From Dictyostelium discoideum (Eukaryota), in contig CM000151.3 of the NCBI GenBank assembly GCA_000004695.1, positions 1,024,001 through 1,088,000 of the forward strand: a stretch of DNA of 64,000 bases, given 5' to 3'. Each line of letters starts with the position of its first letter. The stretch's first letter is position 1. The notes under the pieces are model-generated. The model saw only the letters and a program-made list of their open reading frames with translations, was not told the origin of the DNA and searched no databases. This document shows positions 24,528 through 37,065 of the stretch, piece after piece. A program made the translations under genes and the position numbers.

Positions 24528-25907
24528 TTGATATTTTAAAAATTGTTCCAACATTAAAAACCTCTACAAATCTTAATAATAGTAATAATAATAATGATAA
24601 TAATGATAATAATACATTAACAGCAAGTTCAAATGGTATAACAAGTGGTAATATGAATATATTAAATCATGGTGGTAATAATAATAATATTAACGATGGT
24701 GATGATAAAATCTTTGAAGATATTTCAATTAATAATTTAGCATCGTCATCATCAAAAACCAATACATTATTACAAAGTTCAGCCTATTTAAAAAAGAGAG
24801 GTAATATATTCATAATTTATACAGGTGGTACATTAGGTATGAAAAGAGATCCAGTCTCTGGTACACTAAGACCTGAACCACATTATCTAAAACAACAATT
24901 ACAAGGTTTACCTGAAATGAAATCTTTAGATATGCCAACTTATACAATTACAGAGGTATGTTTATTTTTATATAGTAGCTATAGCGCCGCTAAATATTTA
25001 TTTTTTTATTAATATTTTAAAATATTTTTAGTTTGATCCACCAATTGATTCATCAGATATGGAACATTCAGATTGGATAAAGATTTGTCATTTAATAGAA
25101 AAGAATTATTATGATTATGATGGATTTGTAATATTACATGGTACAGATACGATGGCATATACAGCAAGTGCATTATCATTTATGTTGGAGAATTTGGGTA
25201 AACCAGTGATATTGACAGGTTCACAAATCCCATTTGCAGAGTTAATTAATGATGCAAGAAGAAATCTATTGACTGCGATTATATTTGCTGGTAAAGTTGA
25301 TTTACCAGAGGTTTGTGTATTTTTCAATAATAATCTATTACGTGGTTGTAGAAGTCGTAAAGTTGATTCATGGAGTTTGGATGCTTTCGAGTCACCCAAC
25401 TGTCCACCATTGGCAACATTGGGTATGGAGATTAATATAAATTATGATTTGGTGTTGAATCAGCCAAAGGGCAGATTCCGTGTACACGAAACCATTAATA
25501 AGAATATAGCAGTATTGCATCTAGTGCCTGGTTTCAGTGATGAAACTTTCACAAATCTATTAGCTGAGCCATTAGAAGGCTTGATCTTGCAATCCTACGG
25601 TTCTGGTAACGCACCTGCAAAGAAAAGTAGATTCCTCGAAGCAATCACTCTTGCTGTCAAACGTGGTGTCATTGTTATAGTTACTTCTCAATGTTTACGT
25701 GGTTCTGTAAATTTAAAACAATATGCAACCGGTAAAAGTTTATTAGACGCTGGTGCAATCAGTGGTTATGATATGACTGTTGAAACTGCTGCCACTAAAT
25801 TAGGTTGGTTATTAGGTTTAGGTATACCAAAAGAACAAGTTAAATCTTTAATGGAAATCGATTTACGTGGTGAATTAACAAGAAAAGCAACAAAAAGAAT
25901 AAATTAA
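24524..25907 (+). CDS. L-asparaginase, type I (bacterial-type, cytoplasmic AnsA-like), 2 exons
   Basis: Exon 1 24524..24955 (...YTITE|GTATGT). Intron 24956..25031. Exon 2 25032..25907. Both asparaginase signatures present: IFIIYTGGTLGM (Thr active site) and VILHGTDTMAYTAS. N-terminal poly-N extension. Confidence 0.85.
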
Positions 25908-28466: not shown

Positions 28467-29896
28467 GTAATAACAATAATAAAAACTTAACACCAACTAA
28501 AACAACAACGACAACAACTACAACTACAACAACAACAAACAATAATGAAAAACTTTGGAAACCAAAGAATAAAACACCATGGATTGGAGCAAAAATAACA
28601 ACAATAAATTCATTTGAATTTTATAATGGTTTAAAATTTGAAGGAATCGAGTATTATACAGATTTAACTGTAATGTTAAATAAATTCTCTGATAAAGATA
28701 CAAAGTAAGTTTAGATTCATACATACATACATACATACATACATACACATTTATATTTACATTTACTAATTTTTTATTATTTTTATTATTATTTTATTTT
28801 TTTTTATAATTAAAAAAATAAAAAAAAGAGTTTCTTCATCATCAATTTATAAGATATCATCATTTTTTGAGAATAGAATTAATGGAATATCTTATGTGGA
28901 ATTAATTAAAATTTATAGACCAGAAGAGACTCCAAATGGTAGAAAACCATTTCATAGTCAAAAAGAATTAATACCAAGTAAAGATACAGATATAATGAAA
29001 GTTGAAAATATTAAAAGATTAGTTCATTGTACCGTTCAACCAATCTCTGAATATAAAAAGAGATTACAATTCCCAATGAATGCATTTTGTTGTCAAGACC
29101 AATATATAGATGTTTTAATGAACCATAAAGCAAAATATAGATTATTATATGATACCATTGTATTGGAGAAAGGTAATAGTACAGGTTCTTTAAAAAATCA
29201 AGAAAGTGATAACTCTCAAAATAATAATAATAGTGATGACTGTGATGATGGTGAAGATGATGATGATGATGACCGTGATGATGGTGATGTCGATGATTAT
29301 CAAAATATAAATGATAATATAAATGAAAATATAAATCAAATTGTAAATATAAATATAAATAAAACTAAAAAAGAAAAAGAAAAAGAAAAAGAAAATGAAA
29401 ATGAAATTGAAAATGAATATAGTGGATTTAAAAAATTTAATAATAATACCAGTTTTGATAAATCAGTTGAAAGAAAAGAAAAGAAGCAGAAGAAAGATAC
29501 GACAATAATTGAAGATGATGATGATGATGAAGAACCAGTGGTTATAGCTACTTCACCCAAAAAAAGAAAAGAAGCTGAAAAAATCTATGAAAATGTATTT
29601 GATATACCAAGTAGTAGTAGTAGACATAGTCATAATAGTTACAGAAAAGAATATTCATCTTCATCATCTTCATTTTCATCTTCAACATTTAACAGTAAAA
29701 GTACACAATATAAACCAACATCAGAAGAACATAAGAAAACAATTGATAGATTAAATAAATTGGTTGAAAATAGTACTCAAGCAATTGAAATGGATCTTAA
29801 TAATCATAATTCAAATGGTGTAGGTGAAGCAATTAAAAAATTATTAGAAGAAAAAGAAAGAAAAAAATCAAGAAGATTACATAAAATTGAAATTAG

Positions 29897-29935
<39 letters not shown>

Positions 29936-29966
29936 CGAAAAAGGTGATGAAGAAGAACAAAAAGAA

Positions 29967-30031
<65 letters not shown>

Positions 30032-30640
30032 GAAAAAGAAAAGTAGTAGTAATAGTAATGGTAGCAAAAATAATAGTAACAATAATAGTAAAAATAATTC
30101 ATTTAATTTGGATTTTGATGAAGATGAAGATGAAGAAAAAGCTAAACCATTTAATATTTATAGTCAAGAAGAAAGTAATAGTCAAAAATATTTTAAAAGT
30201 AGTCAAGATTTTAATTCAATCATTGCAACTTTTGGTGATTCAAATGATGGTGATGTTAGTAGTTTCAATATTAATATAACTATTGGTAGTACTAATAACA
30301 ATAACAATAACAATAACAATAGCAATAATAATAATGGTAACGGATATCAAATTGATGGTGAGGAAAGTAGTGGTATAGGTTTAAATAATGATGATGAAGA
30401 TAGATATAATGAAACAATGGCAATACTTTTAGAGGATAAAAAAAATAGAGAAAATAAAATACTTGATAATAAAAATGGTGATGATTTTTATGAATATCAT
30501 TCATCTAAATTTATAAATTTAGATTCAAAAAGATATGATAATAATAATAATTTAAAGATAACAAACTTTTTTCAACCTGTGAAAACACCACCTAAAAAAC
30601 AACAACAAACACAACAACATCAAACACAACAACATCAAAC

Positions 30641-30692
<52 letters not shown>

Positions 30693-32618
30693 GGTTTAAT
30701 GTCAACAGATGATTCAGAAAGAATTAAAAAGAATAGACAATGGGAAGATTTTACAAAAAATAGTCCAAAGAAAAGAGTTTTACAATTTGAAAATGTTTCA
30801 CCAACACACCAACCATCAAAAACATTTGATCCTGAAGTTAGAGCTCATTTATTCTCTTTGGTTAAAAATAATAATAATAGAATTGACAATTATTTCGATA
30901 AAACATCAACCAAAATAACATCGCCAAATAAAATAAATAGTGATTTTGTTACAGATGTTGATTTAGATAATGATATTGATGTTCAACCACATAGAGCCAT
31001 TGTAAATATAGATAATGATTTAACTTTAATACCAAATAAAAATGAAAAATCACCAAATAAAAATCGTAGAAATAATAGTGATAGTAGTAGTGGTGGTAGT
31101 AGTGGTGATGAAAGAAAAAGAAAAGCAAAACTAAAGTTTGCTGATAAAAGTGGTGTTATAATATCAGATAATGAAGATAGTGATACCAATAACAAACCTA
31201 ACCATAAGCCATATAAAAGATTAAGACAAACAACATTAACATCAACTATTAAAAAAGTTAAACCAACAAAACCATCATCATCTTTACATATTGGTAAAAG
31301 TAATATTTTAAGTGATAGTGATGATGAAGAAATTGTAATGAAGAAACCAAGAAGAGTTTCAACACCAAGAAAGAAGAGAACTAGAGGTCAATTCTTTATG
31401 GATAGAGATAAAAGTGATGAGGAAAGAGGTGATGATACCTATCAAATTGATGATTTTGTAGTTGAGAATGGTTCAGATGTTGATGGTTCAAGTGAAGAAG
31501 AGGAATTAAAAAGAAAATCGAGAAGAAGAGATAGAAAAATAATAATAAATGATGAAAAGGATAATGAGGAGGGAGAAGAAGAAGAAGAAGAGGAAGAAGT
31601 TTCAATTCTTTATGAACCTAAAATTAAAGAAAGAGAAAAAATTAAAGAAGGACCAATTGATATTGATACAAATGAACCAATTTATTATACTCCACAATCT
31701 GGTTCAACTAAAAGATCATCAAGTATTTTAGATTATTTCAAAAGAGATGATAAAGATTATCATGATCATGATGATAATAAACCAACCACTACAACTACAA
31801 CAACATCATCATCATTATTATCACCATCATCATTTGATGAGGATGATTTTGAAAATAAGAAAAAAATGAAAGAATTTCAAAAACAACAACAAATGAAACA
31901 ACAACAAACTCATCAAGATCCAAATTTTATTAAAGAAAAAGTATTAAAAGAGTTTTCTAAAAAGTTTACCATTAAAGAATCATTTTCAATCTTTATTCAA
32001 TATGTAATTAGTTGTATTGTTGATGAAGAGTTTTCAAGAGCAGTGATTGAAGATAAGGATGAATATTTCTTGGATGCAATTAATAGAGTTAAAAGTTTTA
32101 TCGTTAGTAAAAAGGAAGCATTGGTATTGGGTAATATGTGGCATGATGAATATTTACATGATATCACACATAGACCATTTCTTCATTCTGCCGAAGTTTC
32201 AGAATATGATTATGAAGGTAGAAAATGTAAATCATGTAATAAAGCCAAACATAATGTTACCATCATTATCTATTTCTCTGGTAGATCCTATGATGTCGAT
32301 GATTTTTGGAGTGGTTATTTTGAAAATCCAAAACGTTTAAAAGGTACCACCAAAGATGAACCAAAATCAATCGAATATGAATTGGGTTCATTCTGTTTCA
32401 AACGTTCACAACTTTTTCATCAACTCCATCATTTTCCTTATAAATTCTTTAGAGATGTTAAACAAGATGTTAGAGATTTACAACAACTTCATTCGGATTG
32501 GACAAATCAAGATATTCTTTTTCATATGACCTCTCCAGATAATAGTTATGTTTCAAGCTATTTTAACTTTTTAGAAAATTTATTGGATTGTGTTGATAGT
32601 TTTTCAAAATTAAATTGA
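28190..32618 (+). CDS. Large (about 1400 aa) low-complexity, probably nuclear, protein with a conserved Cys/His-containing C-terminal domain, 2 exons
   Basis: Exon 1 28190..28704 (ends ...DKDTK with AA|GTAAGT). The intron carries a (CATA)n run. Acceptor ...aaaaaaaag| at about 28828. Exon 2 about 28829..32618 (VSSSSIYKISSFFENRINGISYVELIKIYRPEET...). Poly-D/E, poly-N, poly-Q, K/R-rich NLS-like runs. Ordered last about 230 aa (GNMWHDEYLHDITHRPF...CKSCNKAKH...). Confidence 0.6.
28716..28750. repeat. (CATA)n tetranucleotide microsatellite in the intron
   Basis: Seen directly. Confidence 0.85.
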
Positions 32619-32758
32619 CAATTTTTATCATCCATCTTAAAAAAAAAAAAATAATAAAATAAAAAATGAAATATAATTTACATATATGTTTTTTTTTTTT
32701 TTTTCTCTCTCAAACAACAAAATTAATTATCTTTTTATTTTATTTTATTTTTTTTTTT

Positions 32759-34327
32759 TTAAGATGATAAAATAAATTTAGTTAATAAAATTACAATTTG
32801 GTCAATTATATCAATTATATCAGTATTTTGAGCAGGACTATTATTTGCAATTATTGAAAAGAATATTGAATTTTGTTGATCATCAGAAAGACCATTTGGT
32901 AAAATGACACCAGTTAGAGAATTAACACCAGTCATTGAACCAGTTTTTGCATGGACTATACCACTGGCGGGTGTATTAATGAAACGTTTCGATAGGGTAC
33001 CTGATAATGATGCAACGGGTAAATATGAGATATAGTCATGTTGTGGATCACCAACATTTGTATAAACATTTTCAATAACTGTTATTAATGATTTTGGTGT
33101 AATGAAATTATTTCTACTTAAACCAGAACCATCCACTTGAGTATATAATGATGTTGGAATTGATAATGTTTGTTGAATATATTCTAAACCAGCTTGATAA
33201 GTTGGTGTTGATTCAGAAGCTGCTGAATTAAAAGTGCCCATTTGTCTGAGAAAAGTTTCAGCATATAAATTATTTGATGTTAATAATGTATAATTTAACA
33301 TTTCTGATAATTCGGGTGAAATCACTTCAAATGATTTATAATCCATACCAGTGTAATTACAACTACCAATAGCTGTTTGACTAATTTCAACGCCACCATC
33401 TTCCAACAATGCTGAGAATACTGTTAAAAAGTATTGCTCAGGATCTAAAATTGGTACTGTAATAATTTGAATTCCACCATTAATATCACAATTACCTGTA
33501 ATATAAATTGATTGACTTGACATTTTAAATGAATAGTTTAATGTTGATGTTGAACTATTACTTGTGGTGGTGGTGGTTGCTAATATTATAACTGGTAAAT
33601 ATTTATCTTCACCAGAATATTTAAATGATGCAGTTGGTTTACCACCAATGACATTGGAAGGTGTGATATAAATATCCATTGTGTTTTCATTGATAATTAA
33701 TGGTGTTGGAATTGAACCATAGGTTGAAGTTAAATCTTCCCATTCCCAAGCACTTGGAATATTACCATCAACTCCATTACCAATATTATAGAAGCTAGTA
33801 TCCAATAATAATTTATTAACTTTTTTCATTGTTGGATTTGATGAAAAGAATTTTGCTGCTTCAATTAAATTATCAATTGACATTGATGGATCACCCATAC
33901 CTTTGACACAAATGAAATCTAATTCACTATTACTACTACCACCACTAACACTATTAAATGGTTTATCTGTAAAAAATGGTGTAAAAACTTTGAAATCTTC
34001 ACCAAATGTATAGAAAATACTAATTGTTGTAAATAATTTTGTATTACTTGCTGGTGTAAATGCTTGTAATTCATTTAAACTGAAAATATTTGTAAATTCT
34101 CCATTACTTGGTGTATAAATATCTGCTACAACACCCCATTGTGTACCAAAGCATGAACTACTTTCACTTGATGAACAATTATTTAAAATATCATTTATTA
34201 AAATTTGAATATCTTGATTACCGTTACTTCCGCTATCACTATCTTTTAAAGAAATTTTATTTGACCTAATAATATTAAATAATATTGAAATAATTAATAA
34301 TAATGTTATAATTTTATAATTTTTCAT
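32759..34327 (-). CDS. Peptidase S13 family D-Ala-D-Ala carboxypeptidase/endopeptidase (PBP4/DacB-like), secreted
   Basis: 522-aa intronless ORF. Eukaryotic signal peptide (MKNYKIITLLLIISILFNIIRS). All three penicillin-binding active-site motifs in correct order and spacing: SxxK (PASNTKL), SxN (DGSGLSRNN, compare E. coli DacB DGSGLSRHN) and KTG (HAKTGSMTG). Confidence 0.8.
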   Translation of the reverse strand: MKNYKIITLLLIISILFNIIRSNKISLKDSDSGSNGNQDIQILINDILNNCSSSESSSCFGTQWGVVADIYTPSNGEFTNIFSLNELQAFTPASNTKLFTTISIFYTFGEDFKVFTPFFTDKPFNSVSGGSSNSELDFICVKGMGDPSMSIDNLIEAAKFFSSNPTMKKVNKLLLDTSFYNIGNGVDGNIPSAWEWEDLTSTYGSIPTPLIINENTMDIYITPSNVIGGKPTASFKYSGEDKYLPVIILATTTTTSNSSTSTLNYSFKMSSQSIYITGNCDINGGIQIITVPILDPEQYFLTVFSALLEDGGVEISQTAIGSCNYTGMDYKSFEVISPELSEMLNYTLLTSNNLYAETFLRQMGTFNSAASESTPTYQAGLEYIQQTLSIPTSLYTQVDGSGLSRNNFITPKSLITVIENVYTNVGDPQHDYISYLPVASLSGTLSKRFINTPASGIVHAKTGSMTGVNSLTGVILPNGLSDDQQNSIFFSIIANNSPAQNTDIIDIIDQIVILLTKFILSS

Positions 34328-34889
34328 TTTTTTATTCAGAATTGAAAAATAAAAAAAAAAAAATAAAATAAAATAAAAAAAAAAAATCGAAAATATCCCC
34401 AGGTAAAAAATTAAATAAAAAAATAAAATGATGGGATTTTAAAAAAATCCAATTATTTTCATGGGTTAAAATTTATTCTTACATTATTATTTTTTTAACA
34501 TTCCACTCCTTTTTATTTTGAAAAAAAAAAAATTAAAAACAAAAATTAACTTAAATAAAAAAAAAAATATATAAAAATTACAATTTTATTAAGGGTTTTT
34601 TTTAGAGCAATCAATTAACCATTTTTGTATAAAAAAAAAAAAAAAAAAAAATGGATAAAAAAATTTATTTAAAAATAACAAAAAAGGAATAAAAAATAAT
34701 AAAAAAAGATAAAACTAAAATTAAAAAATATATTAAATAAAGATTAAAATAAATTTTTAAAAAAAAAAAAAATAGACAGATTATTAATAGGTCGGATATG
34801 GATTTTTTATTTTTTATTTTTATTTTTATTTTTATACATATATAATAATTTTTTATAATTAATTATATATTTTTTTATTTATTTTTATT

Positions 34890-37065
34890 TTAATCTTTAT
34901 TTAATCTATTTTCTAATTGATCCATTTGATTTTTAATTTCATTTGGTAATCTATCACCAAATTGTTGACAAAATTGTCTCATACTTTTAAGATCATGTAA
35001 CCATTCAGATTTATTTAAACTAAATAATTCTTTGAGTGAAGATTTATTAATTTCCAAACCATTGAGATCAATTGAATTATTTGAAGGTACGAAACCGATT
35101 GGAGTTTGAGTTGCTTTACCATCGGTTGTATCGAGAGTAGAGTTACAACGATCAAAGATCCATTTTAAGACTCTAACATTTTCACCAAAACCTGGCCATA
35201 AGAATTTACCAGAGGTCTTGTTCTTTCTAAACCAATTGACATAAAAGATCTTTGGAAGTTTATCAGCATTTGAACCGGCTTTTTGTTCCATTGATAACCA
35301 ATGAGCAAAGTAATCACCCATATTATAACCACAGAATGGTAACATAGCGAATGGATCATGTCTAAGTGTACCAACGGTACCTTCGGCAGCGGCAGTTAAT
35401 TCTGATGCAGTGCTAGCACCCATGAAAACACCGTGTTTCCAATTTAATGCTTGATAAACCAATGGAACGGTGGATGAACGTCTACCACCGAAAATGACTG
35501 CAGAGATTGGTACACCGGTTGGATTATTCCATTCTGGATCAATGGATGGACATTGGGAGAGTGGTGCAGTGAAACGTGAATTTGGATGAGCGGCAAATGT
35601 ATTGTTACCTTCACCATTTGGATGCCATTCATTACCTAACCAATCGATTGCAGTTGGTGGTGGTGAACTTAATCCTTCCCACCATACATCATTATCTGGT
35701 GTTAAGGCAACGTTGGTGAATAGTGTATTCTTTGAGATTGCAGCCAAAGCATTTGGATTTGAAGAGGCAGAAGTACCTGGTGCAACACCAAAGAAACCAA
35801 ACTCTGGATTGATTGCATAGAGTTGACCATTTCTCATGGTCATCCAAGCGATATCGTCACCACAAACTTGAACTTTATAACCTGGGAGAACTGAATTTGC
35901 CATGGCGAGATTAGTTTTACCACATGCCGATGGGAATGCAGCTGCAATATATTTCTTTTCACCCTTGTCATTGGTCAATGAAAGAATGAGCATATGTTCA
36001 GCTAACCAACCACCCTCCTTTGCCATTGATGAAGCGATACGAAGTGAGAAACATTTCTTACCCAATAATGCATTACCACCATAACCACTACCAAATGATT
36101 GAATTGATCTCTCCTCTGGATAGTGTACAATGTATTTATTTGGATTACATGGCCAATGGGAATCTTTTTGACCTTTTGCCAATGGTGCACCAACACTATG
36201 TAAACAAGGTACGAAATCATCATTCTCTTTAATTTGATTTAAAACTTTATCACCCATACGTGTCATTATTTTCATATTACACACAACGAATGGAGAATCG
36301 GTAACTTGTACACCGATATGACTAATATCACTTCCCAATGGTCCCATTGAAAATGGCATAACATACATGGTTCTACCTTTCATTGAACCATTAAATAATG
36401 GTTTCAAAGTTTGTTTCATTTGATTTGGGTCCATCCAATTATTTGTTGGTCCTGCATCTTCTTTGGTCTTTGCACAAATGTATGTTCTACTTTCAACTCT
36501 TGCAACATCTGATGGATCTGATCTTGCTAAAAAACTATTTGGTCTTTTTGAATTTAATTTAATTAATGTACCGCTTTTAACCATATCATCTGTAAATCTA
36601 AATTAAATTTTTAATAAATAAATAAATAATTTAAGAATTATTGTTATTTTTTTTTTTTTTTTTGATTTTAAAATTTTTGACCAGTGAAATAATAAAATTA
36701 ATATAAAATTTTAATTTTTAAGATTTTTTTTTTTTTTTTGATTTTTTTTTTTTTTTTTCTTCATTATTTTATATATTAATAATAAAATTTTAAAATTATG
36801 ATGATACATACTTTTTAAATTCTTCTTCACTACCATCACAAATATAAATGTTATCTGGTTTACATAATTTGGCTTGTTCTTCTACCCAATTAATTAATTT
36901 TTGATTTTTTGTTTTTTTCTTTAATTGTTCAAGTGAAAAGAATCTACTACCAACCCATGCACCACTATTAAATCCATTATTATTTAAAAATGTTGATGAT
37001 TGAAATGATGATGAAGATGAAATTGAATTTATAAGTTTACCTTTTTGAATAAAATTTTTTAACAT
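34890..37065 (-). CDS. pckA: Phosphoenolpyruvate carboxykinase (GTP), 2 exons
   Basis: Exon 1 36812..37065 (MLKNF...[30 protein letters not shown] with AA|GTATGT). Intron 36598..36811. Exon 2 34890..36597 ([14 protein letters not shown]...). Hallmarks: kinase-1a P-loop [36 protein letters not shown]. Aligns along its length to my recollection of vertebrate PCK1. The pckA symbol is by analogy. Confidence 0.9.

What the first reader, a model, noticed from the sequence alone, without database searches (positions are those of the whole stretch)
32759..34327. Bacterial-type penicillin-binding protein (peptidase S13, PBP4/DacB-like) with intact catalytic motifs in an amoeba genome
Seen in the sequence: an intronless 522-aa ORF carries SxxK (ASNTK), SxN (DGSGLSRNN) and KTG (AKTGS) in the order and spacing of class C low-molecular-weight PBPs. 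The SxN context is nearly identical to E. coli DacB. The ORF starts with a eukaryote-style signal peptide, has amoeba-like codon usage and AT content, and sits between ordinary eukaryotic genes (PEPCK and the large acidic protein gene). A peptidoglycan DD-carboxypeptidase/endopeptidase has no endogenous substrate in a wall-less amoeba. The likely explanation is a domesticated horizontal acquisition, possibly secreted to degrade the murein of bacterial prey. I recall Peptidase S13 being among the bacterial-origin domains listed for D. discoideum, but I cannot verify that here. The exact orthology and biochemical role remain open.
Basis: partly seen in the sequence, partly recalled or inferred. 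Interest (0 to 1): 0.7.

Follow-up and report, generated by a model that had tools for sequence, protein, structure and literature searches.

The report
Known Dictyostelium penicillin-binding peptidase pscA
This is pscA, a bacterial-type cell-wall peptidase gene already described in the amoeba Dictyostelium discoideum; relatives also occur in many other bacteria-eating protists, so it is probably not a Dictyostelium-only acquisition.

Summary
The 522-aa intronless ORF at 32759..34327 (minus strand) is real. It is a full-length member of Peptidase S13 (class C1 low-molecular-weight PBP, PBP4 type): Pfam PF02113 E=3.9e-60, TIGR00666 above its cut-off, and a model with TM 0.87 to the Actinomadura R39 DD-peptidase. 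The catalytic SxN is S351-N-N353. DGSGLSRNN is a separate family signature.

The gene is already known as pscA (DDB_G0271902). It is on the published D. discoideum horizontal-transfer lists, and papers held here cite Yasukawa et al. 2003 for an active, penicillin-sensitive peptidase. Its role in the cell is still untested.

It is fully adapted to the host (GC3 0.12, host codon usage, signal peptide, conserved synteny) and under purifying selection (dN/dS 0.16-0.24).

New here: homologues exist in Ceratiomyxa, Pelomyxa, Nematostelium, Flabellula, Naegleria, a malawimonad and three unnamed eukaryotic contigs. They group with dictyostelids (NJ bootstrap 79%) and share signature residues. Four membrane-anchored variants carry lysosome-sorting motifs. 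Cyanobacterial PBP4s are the closest bacterial relatives, but the donor is unresolved.

Verdict: already known, low interest. The broader protist family is a modest extension.

The parts
32759..34327 (-). pscA coding sequence: 522 aa, single exon, stop codon included. Peptidase S13 / class C1 PBP.
   Evidence: ORF listed. PF02113 scores 204 bits over aa 79-515. TIGR00666 scores 174 bits against a cut-off of 107.8. AF2 model pLDDT 87.6. Foldseek hit to R39 1w79, E 3.9e-38, target TM 0.87.
34262..34327 (-). Predicted signal peptide, aa 1-22 (MKNYKIITLLLIISILFNIIRS).
   Evidence: Highest hydropathy window of the protein. Predicted as a helix followed by a disordered linker at aa 18-34. 39 of 48 clade members that start with Met (so are probably N-terminally complete) have a similar N-terminus. 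No SignalP run was possible.
34037..34048 (-). SxxK motif S94-N-T-K97: catalytic nucleophile Ser and general-base Lys.
   Evidence: Aligned to PASNMKL of R39 and PASTQKV of E. coli PBP4. Invariant in A1. Coordinates checked by translation.
33734..33748 (-). WEWED motif, aa 194-198. D198 aligns to R39 Asp142.
   Evidence: Alignment. W194 and D198 are invariant in A1. D is present in 96% of the eukaryote clade. Its role in binding the free end of the diaminopimelate side chain is from my memory of the R39/PBP4a structural papers and was not checked here.
33269..33277 (-). True catalytic SxN motif, S351-N352-N353.
   Evidence: Aligns to R39 S298-N-N300 and E. coli PBP4 S-D-N. S and N are 100% conserved in the eukaryote clade. 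Translation check.
33113..33133 (-). R405 aligns to R39 Arg351.
   Evidence: R in 83% of the eukaryote clade and 97% of the bacterial sequences. Translation check.
32939..32947 (-). KTG motif, K461-T462-G463.
   Evidence: Aligned to AKTGT of R39 and AKTGS of E. coli PBP4. 100% conserved in the eukaryote clade.
34328..34889 (-). 5' intergenic region between the PEPCK stop and the pscA ATG. It is 12-20% GC, has long T runs, and has an AAAAAATG start context.
   Evidence: Sequence read. Composition. Promoter function is inferred and was not tested.
32619..32758 (.). 140-bp 3' intergenic region shared with the convergent DUF4211 acidic-protein gene.

Best explanation
The ORF is pscA (DDB_G0271902), the penicillin-sensitive carboxypeptidase of Dictyostelium discoideum. 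It is a three-domain class C1 low-molecular-weight PBP (peptidase S13, PBP4/R39 type).

Shown here:
- It has the complete acyl-enzyme machinery: Ser94/Lys97, Ser351/Asn353 and Lys461-Thr-Gly.
- It keeps the Asp198 / Arg405 / Thr466 positions that align to R39 Asp142, Arg351 and Ser415.
- It keeps domains II and III inserted between SxxK and SxN.
- It has an N-terminal signal peptide and no membrane anchor.
- It has host codon usage and is under purifying selection.

Reported by others: the protein is an active, penicillin-sensitive peptidase.

Inferred:
- The protein enters the secretory/endolysosomal pathway as a soluble glycoprotein.
- In phagolysosomes (or after secretion) it attacks the stem peptides of ingested bacterial peptidoglycan. 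It would remove terminal D-Ala and/or cut D-Ala-(meso)DAP cross-links, helping the amoeba's many lysozymes dismantle and use the sacculus.
- The gene descends from a bacterial PBP4. The closest bacterial sequences are cyanobacterial.
- It probably came through a lineage shared with other bacterivorous protists, rather than through a transfer private to Dictyostelium.
For: Family and fold:
- PF02113 E=3.9e-60 over the whole profile.
- TIGR00666 scores 174 bits, above its cut-off of 107.8.
- PDB sequence hits to R39, PBP4a and E. coli/H. influenzae PBP4, with the motifs in register.
- AF2 model pLDDT 87.6 and pTM 0.85.
- Foldseek: R39 E 3.9e-38 with target TM 0.87, then PBP4a, PBP4, and the Bdellovibrio predatory endopeptidases.

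Functional state:
- Catalytic residues are invariant in A1 and at or near 100% in the eukaryote clade.
- dN/dS is 0.16-0.24.
- Synteny GluRS-PEPCK-pscA-DUF4211-carrier is conserved in D. citrinum and in a second D. discoideum assembly.
- GC3 is 0.119 and RSCU r=0.945.

Identity and activity from the literature:
[quoted passage not shown] Support for an endolysosomal role from relatives:
- 39 of 48 N-terminally complete clade members have signal-peptide-like N-termini.
- All four C-terminally membrane-anchored variants have ExxxLL or YxxO sorting motifs in short tails.
- Every clade member with a species name is an amoeboid or flagellate protist known, from general knowledge, to feed on bacteria.
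Against: - No localisation, expression or knockout data could be retrieved.
- pscA is absent from the differential-expression supplements of two studies of growth on bacteria.
- It is not mentioned in a 2026 review of Dictyostelium killing effectors.
- The primary biochemical paper (PMID 12843630) is not held, so the activity claim rests on citing papers.
- Activity at acidic phagosomal pH, and endopeptidase versus carboxypeptidase preference, are unknown.
- The DAP-pocket interpretation rests on my memory of the R39/PBP4a literature.
- The signal peptide was judged by hydropathy only.
Confidence: 0.65

Rival explanations
1. The acquisition is private to Dictyostelia (the published and first-reader view): one bacterium-to-dictyostelid transfer. 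Under this view the other protist sequences are independent transfers or bacterial contamination of transcriptomes.
For: [quoted passage not shown]
- Several non-dictyostelid sequences are transcriptome-only (EukProt).
- Divergence within the eukaryote clade (p about 0.68) is as large as the distance to cyanobacteria.
- Internal nodes of the NJ tree are unsupported.
Against: - Genome-encoded copies exist in Pelomyxa (49.7-kb contig) and Naegleria gruberi (747-kb scaffold).
- They also occur on three unnamed eukaryotic contigs. These carry a GT-AG intron in IleRS, or Atg4/Brix/cathepsin neighbours, or a DOCK GEF neighbour.
- All named eukaryotes fall in one NJ clade with 79% bootstrap, and no named bacterium falls inside it.
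- The clade shares signatures that are rare in bacteria: C140, C323, P207 and L348.
Confidence: 0.15
2. The enzyme has been re-purposed. It no longer works on prey peptidoglycan but on an endogenous substrate or signal. Examples would be processing of a developmental peptide, or trimming muropeptides for sensing or for controlling carried or farmed bacteria. Insect HGT-derived peptidoglycan enzymes do the latter.
For: - Its in vivo function is explicitly unknown.
- It was not found among genes induced on bacteria in the two supplements searched.
- There are precedents: LACTB-type PBP homologues in eukaryotes (PMC2266909) and aphid/mealybug peptidoglycan genes (titles).
- The Synstelium homologue is predicted as a fusion to TIG/EGF domains.
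Against: - The positions aligning to R39's substrate-pocket residues (D198, R405, T466) and the DGSGLSR signature remain conserved, as in bacterial enzymes.
- The protein carries a signal peptide and no other targeting signal.
- Membrane-anchored relatives carry endolysosomal sorting motifs.
- The named clade members are, from general knowledge, bacterivores.
Confidence: 0.15
3. The ORF is a dead relic, or bacterial contamination of the assembly.
For: The only support is the absence of expression data in what could be searched.
Against: - The ORF is intact and all catalytic motifs are present.
- dN/dS is 0.16-0.24 across three comparisons.
- GC3 is 0.119 with host RSCU.
- It is flanked by eukaryotic genes in conserved synteny in two further assemblies.
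- Orthologues exist across the dictyostelid genera sampled (Dictyostelium, Polysphondylium, Tieghemostelium, Acytostelium, Heterostelium, Synstelium).
- Activity has been reported.
Confidence: 0.01
4. It acts mainly as a beta-lactam sink or weak beta-lactamase that neutralises antibiotics in soil.
For: - It is penicillin-sensitive, so it becomes acylated by beta-lactams.
- Domain I has the class A beta-lactamase fold.
Against: - An amoeba has no beta-lactam target to protect.
- It has PBP-type motifs and a domain II/III insert, not a beta-lactamase architecture. Beta-lactamases match only at E about 1e-5 to 1e-6 and query TM of 0.31-0.37.
Confidence: 0.03

Closest known systems
D. discoideum pscA / DDB_G0271902 (penicillin-sensitive carboxypeptidase A; Yasukawa et al. 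2003, Biol Pharm Bull 26:1018; HGT lists of Eichinger 2005 and Sucgang 2011)
   Same: It is the same gene. Sucgang 2011 Table 2 lists a single D. discoideum gene under Peptidase S13. The best database hit is a D. discoideum protein at 98% identity in the same PEPCK-S13-acidic-protein context. I recall pckA as DDB_G0271904, the adjacent gene number, but could not check that here.
   Different: Nothing substantive differs. The window copy differs from assembly GCA_054859355.1 by 11 amino acids and one residue of length. PEPCK next door diverges equally (98.6% nt), so this is strain divergence.
Actinomadura R39 DD-peptidase and B. subtilis PBP4a (class C1 PBPs; PDB 1w79, 1w5d)
   Same: These are the best structural and sequence matches among solved structures (E 1e-21 by sequence; Foldseek E 4e-38, target TM 0.87). 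They share the three-domain layout, all three catalytic motifs, and the positions equivalent to Asp142, Arg351 and Ser415.
   Different: Identity is only 22-23% in the Foldseek alignments. The amoeba protein has a eukaryotic signal peptide, six N-glycosylation sequons, and Cys140/Cys323, which are typical of the eukaryote clade and rare in bacteria. It has no cell wall of its own to work on.
E. coli PBP4 (DacB)
   Same: Same family, same motifs, and a nearly identical DGSGLSR(H/N)N stretch.
   Different: It is not an equivalog: NF008322 scores 119.9 bits against a cut-off of 527. The structural match is weaker (target TM 0.79, 19% identity).
Cyanobacterial PBP4 (Nostoc, Microcoleus, Spirulina and others)
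   Same: These are the closest named bacterial sequences in every search. They lead with the Dictyostelium query (31-34% identity) and with a 16-sequence eukaryote profile. Re-scored per domain against that profile they reach 460-478 bits, against 295-351 for Brevibacillus domains. They also lead for the GC-rich clade member P0176 and have the smallest p-distances.
   Different: They fall outside the 79% eukaryote clade in the NJ tree, and a sister relationship is not supported. They lack the clade signature residues. Most also hit PF13354.
Bdellovibrio predatory DD-endopeptidases Bd3459/Bd0816
   Same: These are PBP4-family enzymes that a predator uses on its prey's wall rather than its own. 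This is the nearest functional analogy. They are found by fold search at E about 1e-14.
   Different: The match is much weaker (TM 0.48/0.61, 13-14% identity). From memory of Lerner et al. 2012, the Bdellovibrio enzymes lack domain III. The amoeba protein retains the full insert: 257 aa lie between SxxK and SxN.
LACTB-type (S12) PBP homologues of eukaryotes
   Same: They are also bacterial-type active-site-serine PBP relatives in eukaryotes, including four in Dictyostelium (PMC2266909).
   Different: They belong to a different family (S12 / class B LMW PBP-like) and are mitochondrial. The window protein hits no Pfam family other than PF02113, apart from a weak sub-threshold Coiled hit.

Membership tests
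Peptidase S13 / class C1 LMW PBP (PBP4 type) | Profile match above the curated thresholds (Pfam PF02113; NCBIfam TIGR00666). | tested here: met
   PF02113 scores 204.3 bits against 22.8, covering profile positions 30-441 of 444. TIGR00666 scores 174.3 bits against 107.8.
Peptidase S13 / class C1 LMW PBP (PBP4 type) | SxxK, SxN and KTG at positions homologous to the catalytic residues. | tested here: met
S94/K97, S351/N353 and K461-T-G463 align to the R39, PBP4a and E. coli PBP4 motifs. They are invariant in A1.
Peptidase S13 / class C1 LMW PBP (PBP4 type) | Three-domain architecture, with domains II and III inserted between SxxK and SxN of the penicillin-binding domain (definition quoted in PMC4604126). 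| tested here: met
   257 residues lie between S94 and S351. The AF2 model (pLDDT 87.6) superposes on the full length of R39 and PBP4a with target TM 0.87.
Peptidase S13 / class C1 LMW PBP (PBP4 type) | Penicillin-sensitive DD-carboxypeptidase (and DD-endopeptidase) activity. | not testable with these tools
   Two citing papers report it as active and penicillin-sensitive. The primary paper is not held. The status of endopeptidase activity is unknown to me.
E. coli-type DacB equivalog (NCBIfam NF008322 / PRK11113) | Score above the equivalog cut-off. | tested here: not met
   119.9 bits against a cut-off of 527.
Bdellovibrio-type predatory DD-endopeptidase (Bd3459/Bd0816) | Close structural and sequence similarity, and loss of domain III (the domain III loss is from memory). 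| tested here: not met
   Foldseek E 1e-14, TM 0.48/0.61, 13-14% identity. The window protein keeps the full II/III insert. This is a functional analogy only.
Class A beta-lactamase | Single-domain beta-lactamase fold without the II/III insert, and a profile match. | tested here: not met
   There is no beta-lactamase Pfam hit. Beta-lactamases match only domain I, at E about 1e-5 to 1e-6 and query TM 0.31-0.37.
Horizontally acquired bacterial gene domesticated in a eukaryote | Bacterial family affiliation, a eukaryotic genomic context, host-like composition, and purifying selection. | tested here: met
   The timing and the donor are not resolved.

The most novel reading that the evidence does not exclude
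pscA may not be a Dictyostelium curiosity. It may be one member of an old family of endolysosomal peptidoglycan DD-peptidases tied to feeding on bacteria. That family would derive from a single cyanobacterial-type PBP4 and be retained patchily across at least three deep eukaryotic lineages: Amoebozoa (including Tubulinea and Archamoebae), Discoba (Naegleria) and malawimonads, plus marine protists. It would have been lost wherever bacterivory was lost. If so, a PBP would be part of the ancestral eukaryotic toolkit for digesting bacteria, alongside lysozymes. I found no paper in the held library that describes such a clade.
Probability: 0.35. Interest if true: 0.55.

Novelty: already known. Interest (0 to 1): 0.22.

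Why it matters
As submitted, the finding rediscovers a gene that was named and assayed in 2003 and has been on the Dictyostelium HGT list since 2005. It adds little by itself.

What remains worth knowing is the biology nobody has tested. Does a professional phagocyte use a penicillin-binding protein to take apart the peptide cross-links of its prey's wall?

The broader distribution found here makes pscA a tractable model for a possibly widespread component of protist bacterivory. That distribution includes genome-encoded copies in Naegleria, Pelomyxa and unnamed protists, and variants with lysosome-sorting tails. It also suggests that beta-lactams in soil could inhibit a predator's digestive enzyme, not only the growth of bacteria.

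Tried and rejected
- The primary paper (PMID 12843630) and the genome paper (PMC1352341) are not held. Activity therefore rests on citing papers.
- I searched for expression data in the supplements of PMC7078664 and PMC2443395 using DDB_G0271902 and pscA. There were no occurrences. A full-text search for DDB_G0271902 finds only PMC3188802.
- A literature search for the R39 pocket residues (Arg351/Asp142) found nothing. The DAP-pocket reading is from memory.
- I tried to identify the bacterial donor by NJ. The position of the eukaryote clade relative to cyanobacteria or to the Brevibacillus-like group has 49% support or less. No ML tool was available.
- I suspected that pscA evolves unusually fast within D. 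discoideum, given 2% amino-acid divergence from assembly GCA_054859355.1. I rejected this because PEPCK next door is equally diverged and omega is 0.16.
- I suspected a duplicated 641-aa gene flanking the S13 gene on L001. I rejected this because the two ORFs are unrelated.
- I wanted to measure the Cys140-Cys323 distance in the model. The coordinates are not exposed.
- The identity of clade member P0176, which has a Tat-like SRRDFLS motif, is unresolved. Its close relatives are all unnamed.
Full report
**1. The observation**

The window holds one uninterrupted ORF at 32759..34327 on the minus strand. It is 522 aa and starts with ATG in an AAAAAATG context after long T runs. PEPCK lies upstream on the same strand (34890..36584). 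A 1240-aa acidic, repeat-rich DUF4211 protein converges on its 3' end.

The ORF has 28% GC and GC3 of 0.119. Its relative synonymous codon usage correlates at r=0.945 with nine other ORFs of at least 200 aa from across the window. The flanking intergenic DNA is 12-20% GC.

The N-terminus, MKNYKIITLLLIISILFNIIRS, contains the most hydrophobic window of the protein. There is no second membrane-span-like segment.

**2. Family membership**

- Pfam PF02113 (Peptidase_S13) matches aa 79-515 over essentially the whole profile, at E=3.9e-60 (204 bits against a gathering score of 22.8).
- NCBIfam TIGR00666 (PBP4) scores 174 bits, above its cut-off of 107.8.
- The E. coli-type DacB equivalog NF008322 scores only 119.9 bits against 527.
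- Among solved structures, the best sequence matches are the Actinomadura R39 DD-peptidase (E about 1e-21), B. subtilis PBP4a, and E. coli and H. influenzae PBP4.
- An AlphaFold2 model built on a 38-sequence alignment has pLDDT 87.6 and pTM 0.85.
- By Foldseek the model superposes on R39 and PBP4a at E about 1e-37 to 1e-38, with target TM 0.87. It matches PBP4 of E. coli and H. influenzae at TM 0.75-0.82. The Bdellovibrio predatory endopeptidases Bd3459/Bd0816 follow much more weakly (E about 1e-14). Class A beta-lactamases match through domain I only.

There are 257 residues between SxxK and SxN. Together with the full-length superposition, this shows that the class C1 hallmark is retained: domains II and III are inserted into the penicillin-binding domain. 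That definition is quoted in PMC4604126.

**3. Correction of the motifs**

In the HMMER alignments, SxxK is S94-N-T-K97 and aligns to PASNMKL of R39 and PASTQKV of E. coli. KTG is K461-T-G463.

The catalytic SxN is S351-N-N353, in LLTSNNLYAETF. It aligns to the SNN of R39, which is residues 298-300 when I count along the printed alignment. It also aligns to the SDN of E. coli PBP4, which is chain residues 287-289. Adding 19 gives S306/N308, and the same offset gives S62 for SxxK.

Its Arg405 aligns to R39 Arg351. D198 (WEWED) aligns to R39 Asp142, and T466 aligns to Ser415. From my memory of the R39 and PBP4a structure papers, these three residues hold the free amino-carboxylate end of the diaminopimelate side chain. 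I could not confirm this in the held literature.

All of these positions are invariant or nearly so across the alignments. Window coordinates of every motif were checked by translation.

**4. It is an already known gene**

Sucgang et al. [quoted passage not shown] It is one of 16 candidate bacterial transfers carried over from the 2005 genome paper. [quoted passage not shown] 2003.

Vanden Broeck et al. [quoted passage not shown] They speculate that such enzymes outside bacteria serve as weapons or for recycling walls.

The best database hit is a D. discoideum protein at 98% identity, lying in the same GluRS-PEPCK-S13-acidic protein-mitochondrial carrier context.

**5. Functional state**

Orthologues are present and intronless in D. 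citrinum, D. dimigraforme, D. purpureum, Polysphondylium violaceum, Tieghemostelium, Acytostelium, Heterostelium and Synstelium.

Nei-Gojobori estimates give:
- dN/dS 0.16 against a second D. discoideum assembly,
- 0.20-0.24 against D. citrinum,
- 0.16 against P. violaceum, where dS is saturated.

PEPCK next door is as diverged between the two D. discoideum sequences as pscA is (98.6% nt), so pscA is not unusually fast-evolving. A relic or a contaminant is excluded.

**6. Wider distribution (the part that goes beyond the literature I could find)**

An exhaustive phmmer search of 1.84 billion representatives found 157 proteins at E<=1e-30. Cluster look-ups named the following hits just below the dictyostelids:
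- Synstelium polycarpum
- Ceratiomyxa fruticulosa
- Pelomyxa schiedti (NCBI KAH3744581.1, 49.7-kb contig)
- Nematostelium gracile
- Flabellula baltica
- Gefionella okellyi, a malawimonad
- Naegleria gruberi (XP_002676886.1, 747-kb scaffold)
- a UniRef entry, A0A7S2W8Y0, whose accession series I associate with marine protist transcriptomes (from memory)
- several unnamed EukProt transcripts

Three unnamed metagenomic or SRA members sit on contigs that are clearly eukaryotic:
- L001 carries an IleRS gene split by a GTATGT...CAG intron.
- L003 has Brix, Atg4 (Peptidase_C54), cathepsin, ankyrin and P450-reductase neighbours.
- L004 has a DOCK-family GEF next door.

I aligned S13 domains to a profile (166 sequences, 446 columns) and built a neighbour-joining tree with Kimura distances and 200 bootstraps.
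- Dictyostelia are monophyletic at 100%.
- All named eukaryotes fall into one 53-sequence clade with 79% support.
- The named bacteria (Nostocales cyanobacteria; Brevibacillus proteins with two tandem S13 domains) fall outside it.
- Resolution inside the clade is poor. Dictyostelia plus Ceratiomyxa gets 45%.

The clade has signature residues that are rare in the 113 other sequences:

| Position | In the eukaryote clade | In the other sequences |
|---|---|---|
| Cys140 | 85% | 1% |
| Cys323 | 81% | 0% |
| Pro207 | 91% | 3% |
| Leu348 | 91% | 10% |

Pro191 and Gln397 also discriminate.

Caveats:
- NJ on sequences that differ at about 68% of sites is weak evidence.
- Within-clade distances equal the distance to cyanobacteria.
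- The Cys pair could be a convergent adaptation to the secretory pathway.
- One member, P0176, has a twin-arginine-like SRRDFLS motif and only unnamed relatives, so the clade may contain non-eukaryotic or plastid-targeted members.

**7. Donor**

Cyanobacterial PBP4s are consistently the closest named bacterial sequences.
- With the AT-rich Dictyostelium query they reach 31-34% identity.
- With a 16-sequence eukaryote profile they lead the search. Re-scored per domain against that profile, they reach 460-478 bits, overlapping bona fide eukaryotic members, against 295-351 for Brevibacillus domains.
- They are the closest by raw distance.
- They are the closest named sequences for the GC-rich P0176.

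The NJ tree does not support a specific sister group. I regard the donor as 'cyanobacterial-type, unresolved'.

**8. Mechanism**

Shown here:
- intact acylation machinery and substrate-pocket positions,
- a three-domain PBP4 fold,
- a signal peptide and six N-glycosylation sequons,
- no membrane anchor and no other targeting signal.

Reported by others: penicillin-sensitive peptidase activity.

Inferred: the protein is a soluble cargo of the secretory/endolysosomal pathway. It trims D-Ala-D-Ala termini and/or cuts DD cross-links of DAP-type peptidoglycan from ingested bacteria.

Indirect support comes from relatives. 39 of 48 N-terminally complete clade members have signal-peptide-like N-termini. 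The four that carry a C-terminal transmembrane segment all have canonical endolysosomal sorting motifs in short cytosolic tails:
- ESQALL in Gefionella
- EASYLL in P0245
- YNAM in P0172
- GYRTI in P0183, which resembles the GYQTI tail of LAMP1 as I remember it

Against this:
- No localisation, expression or knockout evidence could be retrieved.
- A 2026 review of Dictyostelium antibacterial effectors does not mention the gene.

I put the identity of the gene at above 0.95. I put the prey-wall digestion role at about 0.6-0.65.

**9. Rivals**

- A transfer private to Dictyostelia, with the other protist copies independent or contaminant (0.15).
- Re-purposing to an endogenous or signalling substrate, or to symbiont control (0.15).
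- A beta-lactam sink (0.03).
- A relic or contamination (0.01).

**10. Verdict**

The ORF and its family assignment are right. One of the three motifs was misplaced, and the gene is not an E. coli DacB orthologue. The finding as a whole has been known since 2003-2005, so novelty is 'already known' and interest is low.

The most novel reading that the evidence leaves open is this: pscA belongs to an old, patchily retained family of endolysosomal peptidoglycan DD-peptidases in bacterivorous protists from several supergroups. This deserves a proper ML phylogeny and a simple localisation and knockout experiment.

Noticed in passing
P0142 (Gefionella), P0172 (L004:1423-3180), P0183, P0245: Four eukaryote-clade S13 proteins carry a C-terminal transmembrane segment and a short tail. 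The tails hold canonical endolysosomal sorting motifs: ESQALL, YNAM, GYRTI and EASYLL. P0172 also has an EGF-like Cys-rich spacer before the membrane segment.
   Followed up: partly
P0121 (Synstelium polycarpum, 1335 aa): The S13 domain (aa 880-1328) is preceded by about 860 residues containing a TIG/IPT domain and a weak EGF hit. This is either a real multidomain extracellular protein or a fusion of two gene models.
   Followed up: partly
P0122, P0123, P0126, P0130, P0132, P0137, P0139, P0148, P0152, P0159 (about 900-966 aa; the named members of P0122's cluster are almost all Brevibacillus, the other nine are unnamed): These are proteins of bacterial type with two complete S13 domains in tandem. 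In three of them the C-terminal copy is shortened. Their high whole-protein scores in the representative search come from the doubled domain.
   Followed up: partly
L006 (GCA_054859355.1, labelled D. discoideum) against window 32759-36584: This assembly differs from the window by dS about 0.055 in pscA and by 1.4% nt in PEPCK. As I recall, D. discoideum isolates usually differ much less than this, so it may be a deep lineage or a cryptic species.
   Followed up: partly
P0176 (JGI metagenome, 552 aa): This clade member has an N-terminal SRRDFLS twin-arginine-like motif and no eukaryote-style signal peptide. Its close relatives are all unnamed, and the nearest named sequences are cyanobacteria. 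It could mark a bacterial or plastid-targeted branch near the eukaryote clade.
   Followed up: partly
L001 (Logan SRR23962323, 14.6 kb, 28% GC): This is an unnamed AT-rich eukaryote contig carrying an S13 gene (P0252). It also holds an amine oxidase and an IleRS with a roughly 230-bp GT-AG intron. The organism is not identified.
   Followed up: partly
window 28896-32618 (+): The convergent neighbour is a 1240-aa protein full of poly-N, poly-Q, poly-D/E and poly-T tracts, with a C-terminal DUF4211 domain (aa 1007-1135). The listed ORF starts at GTG, and the orthologous gene models in L005 and L006 are longer (1335 and 1497 aa). The true start is probably upstream or spliced.
   Followed up: no
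window 34890-36584 (-) and upstream: The PEPCK ORF here is 564 aa and begins at profile position 32 of PEPCK_N. The gene models in L005 and L006 are 653-660 aa and span more DNA, so a 5' exon and an intron should lie upstream of 36584.
   Followed up: no
window 25059-25907 (+): This is an asparaginase ORF (PF00710 plus PF17763), which I recall as the bacterial type II form. The match starts at profile position 57, so its N-terminal exon is probably separate.
   Followed up: no
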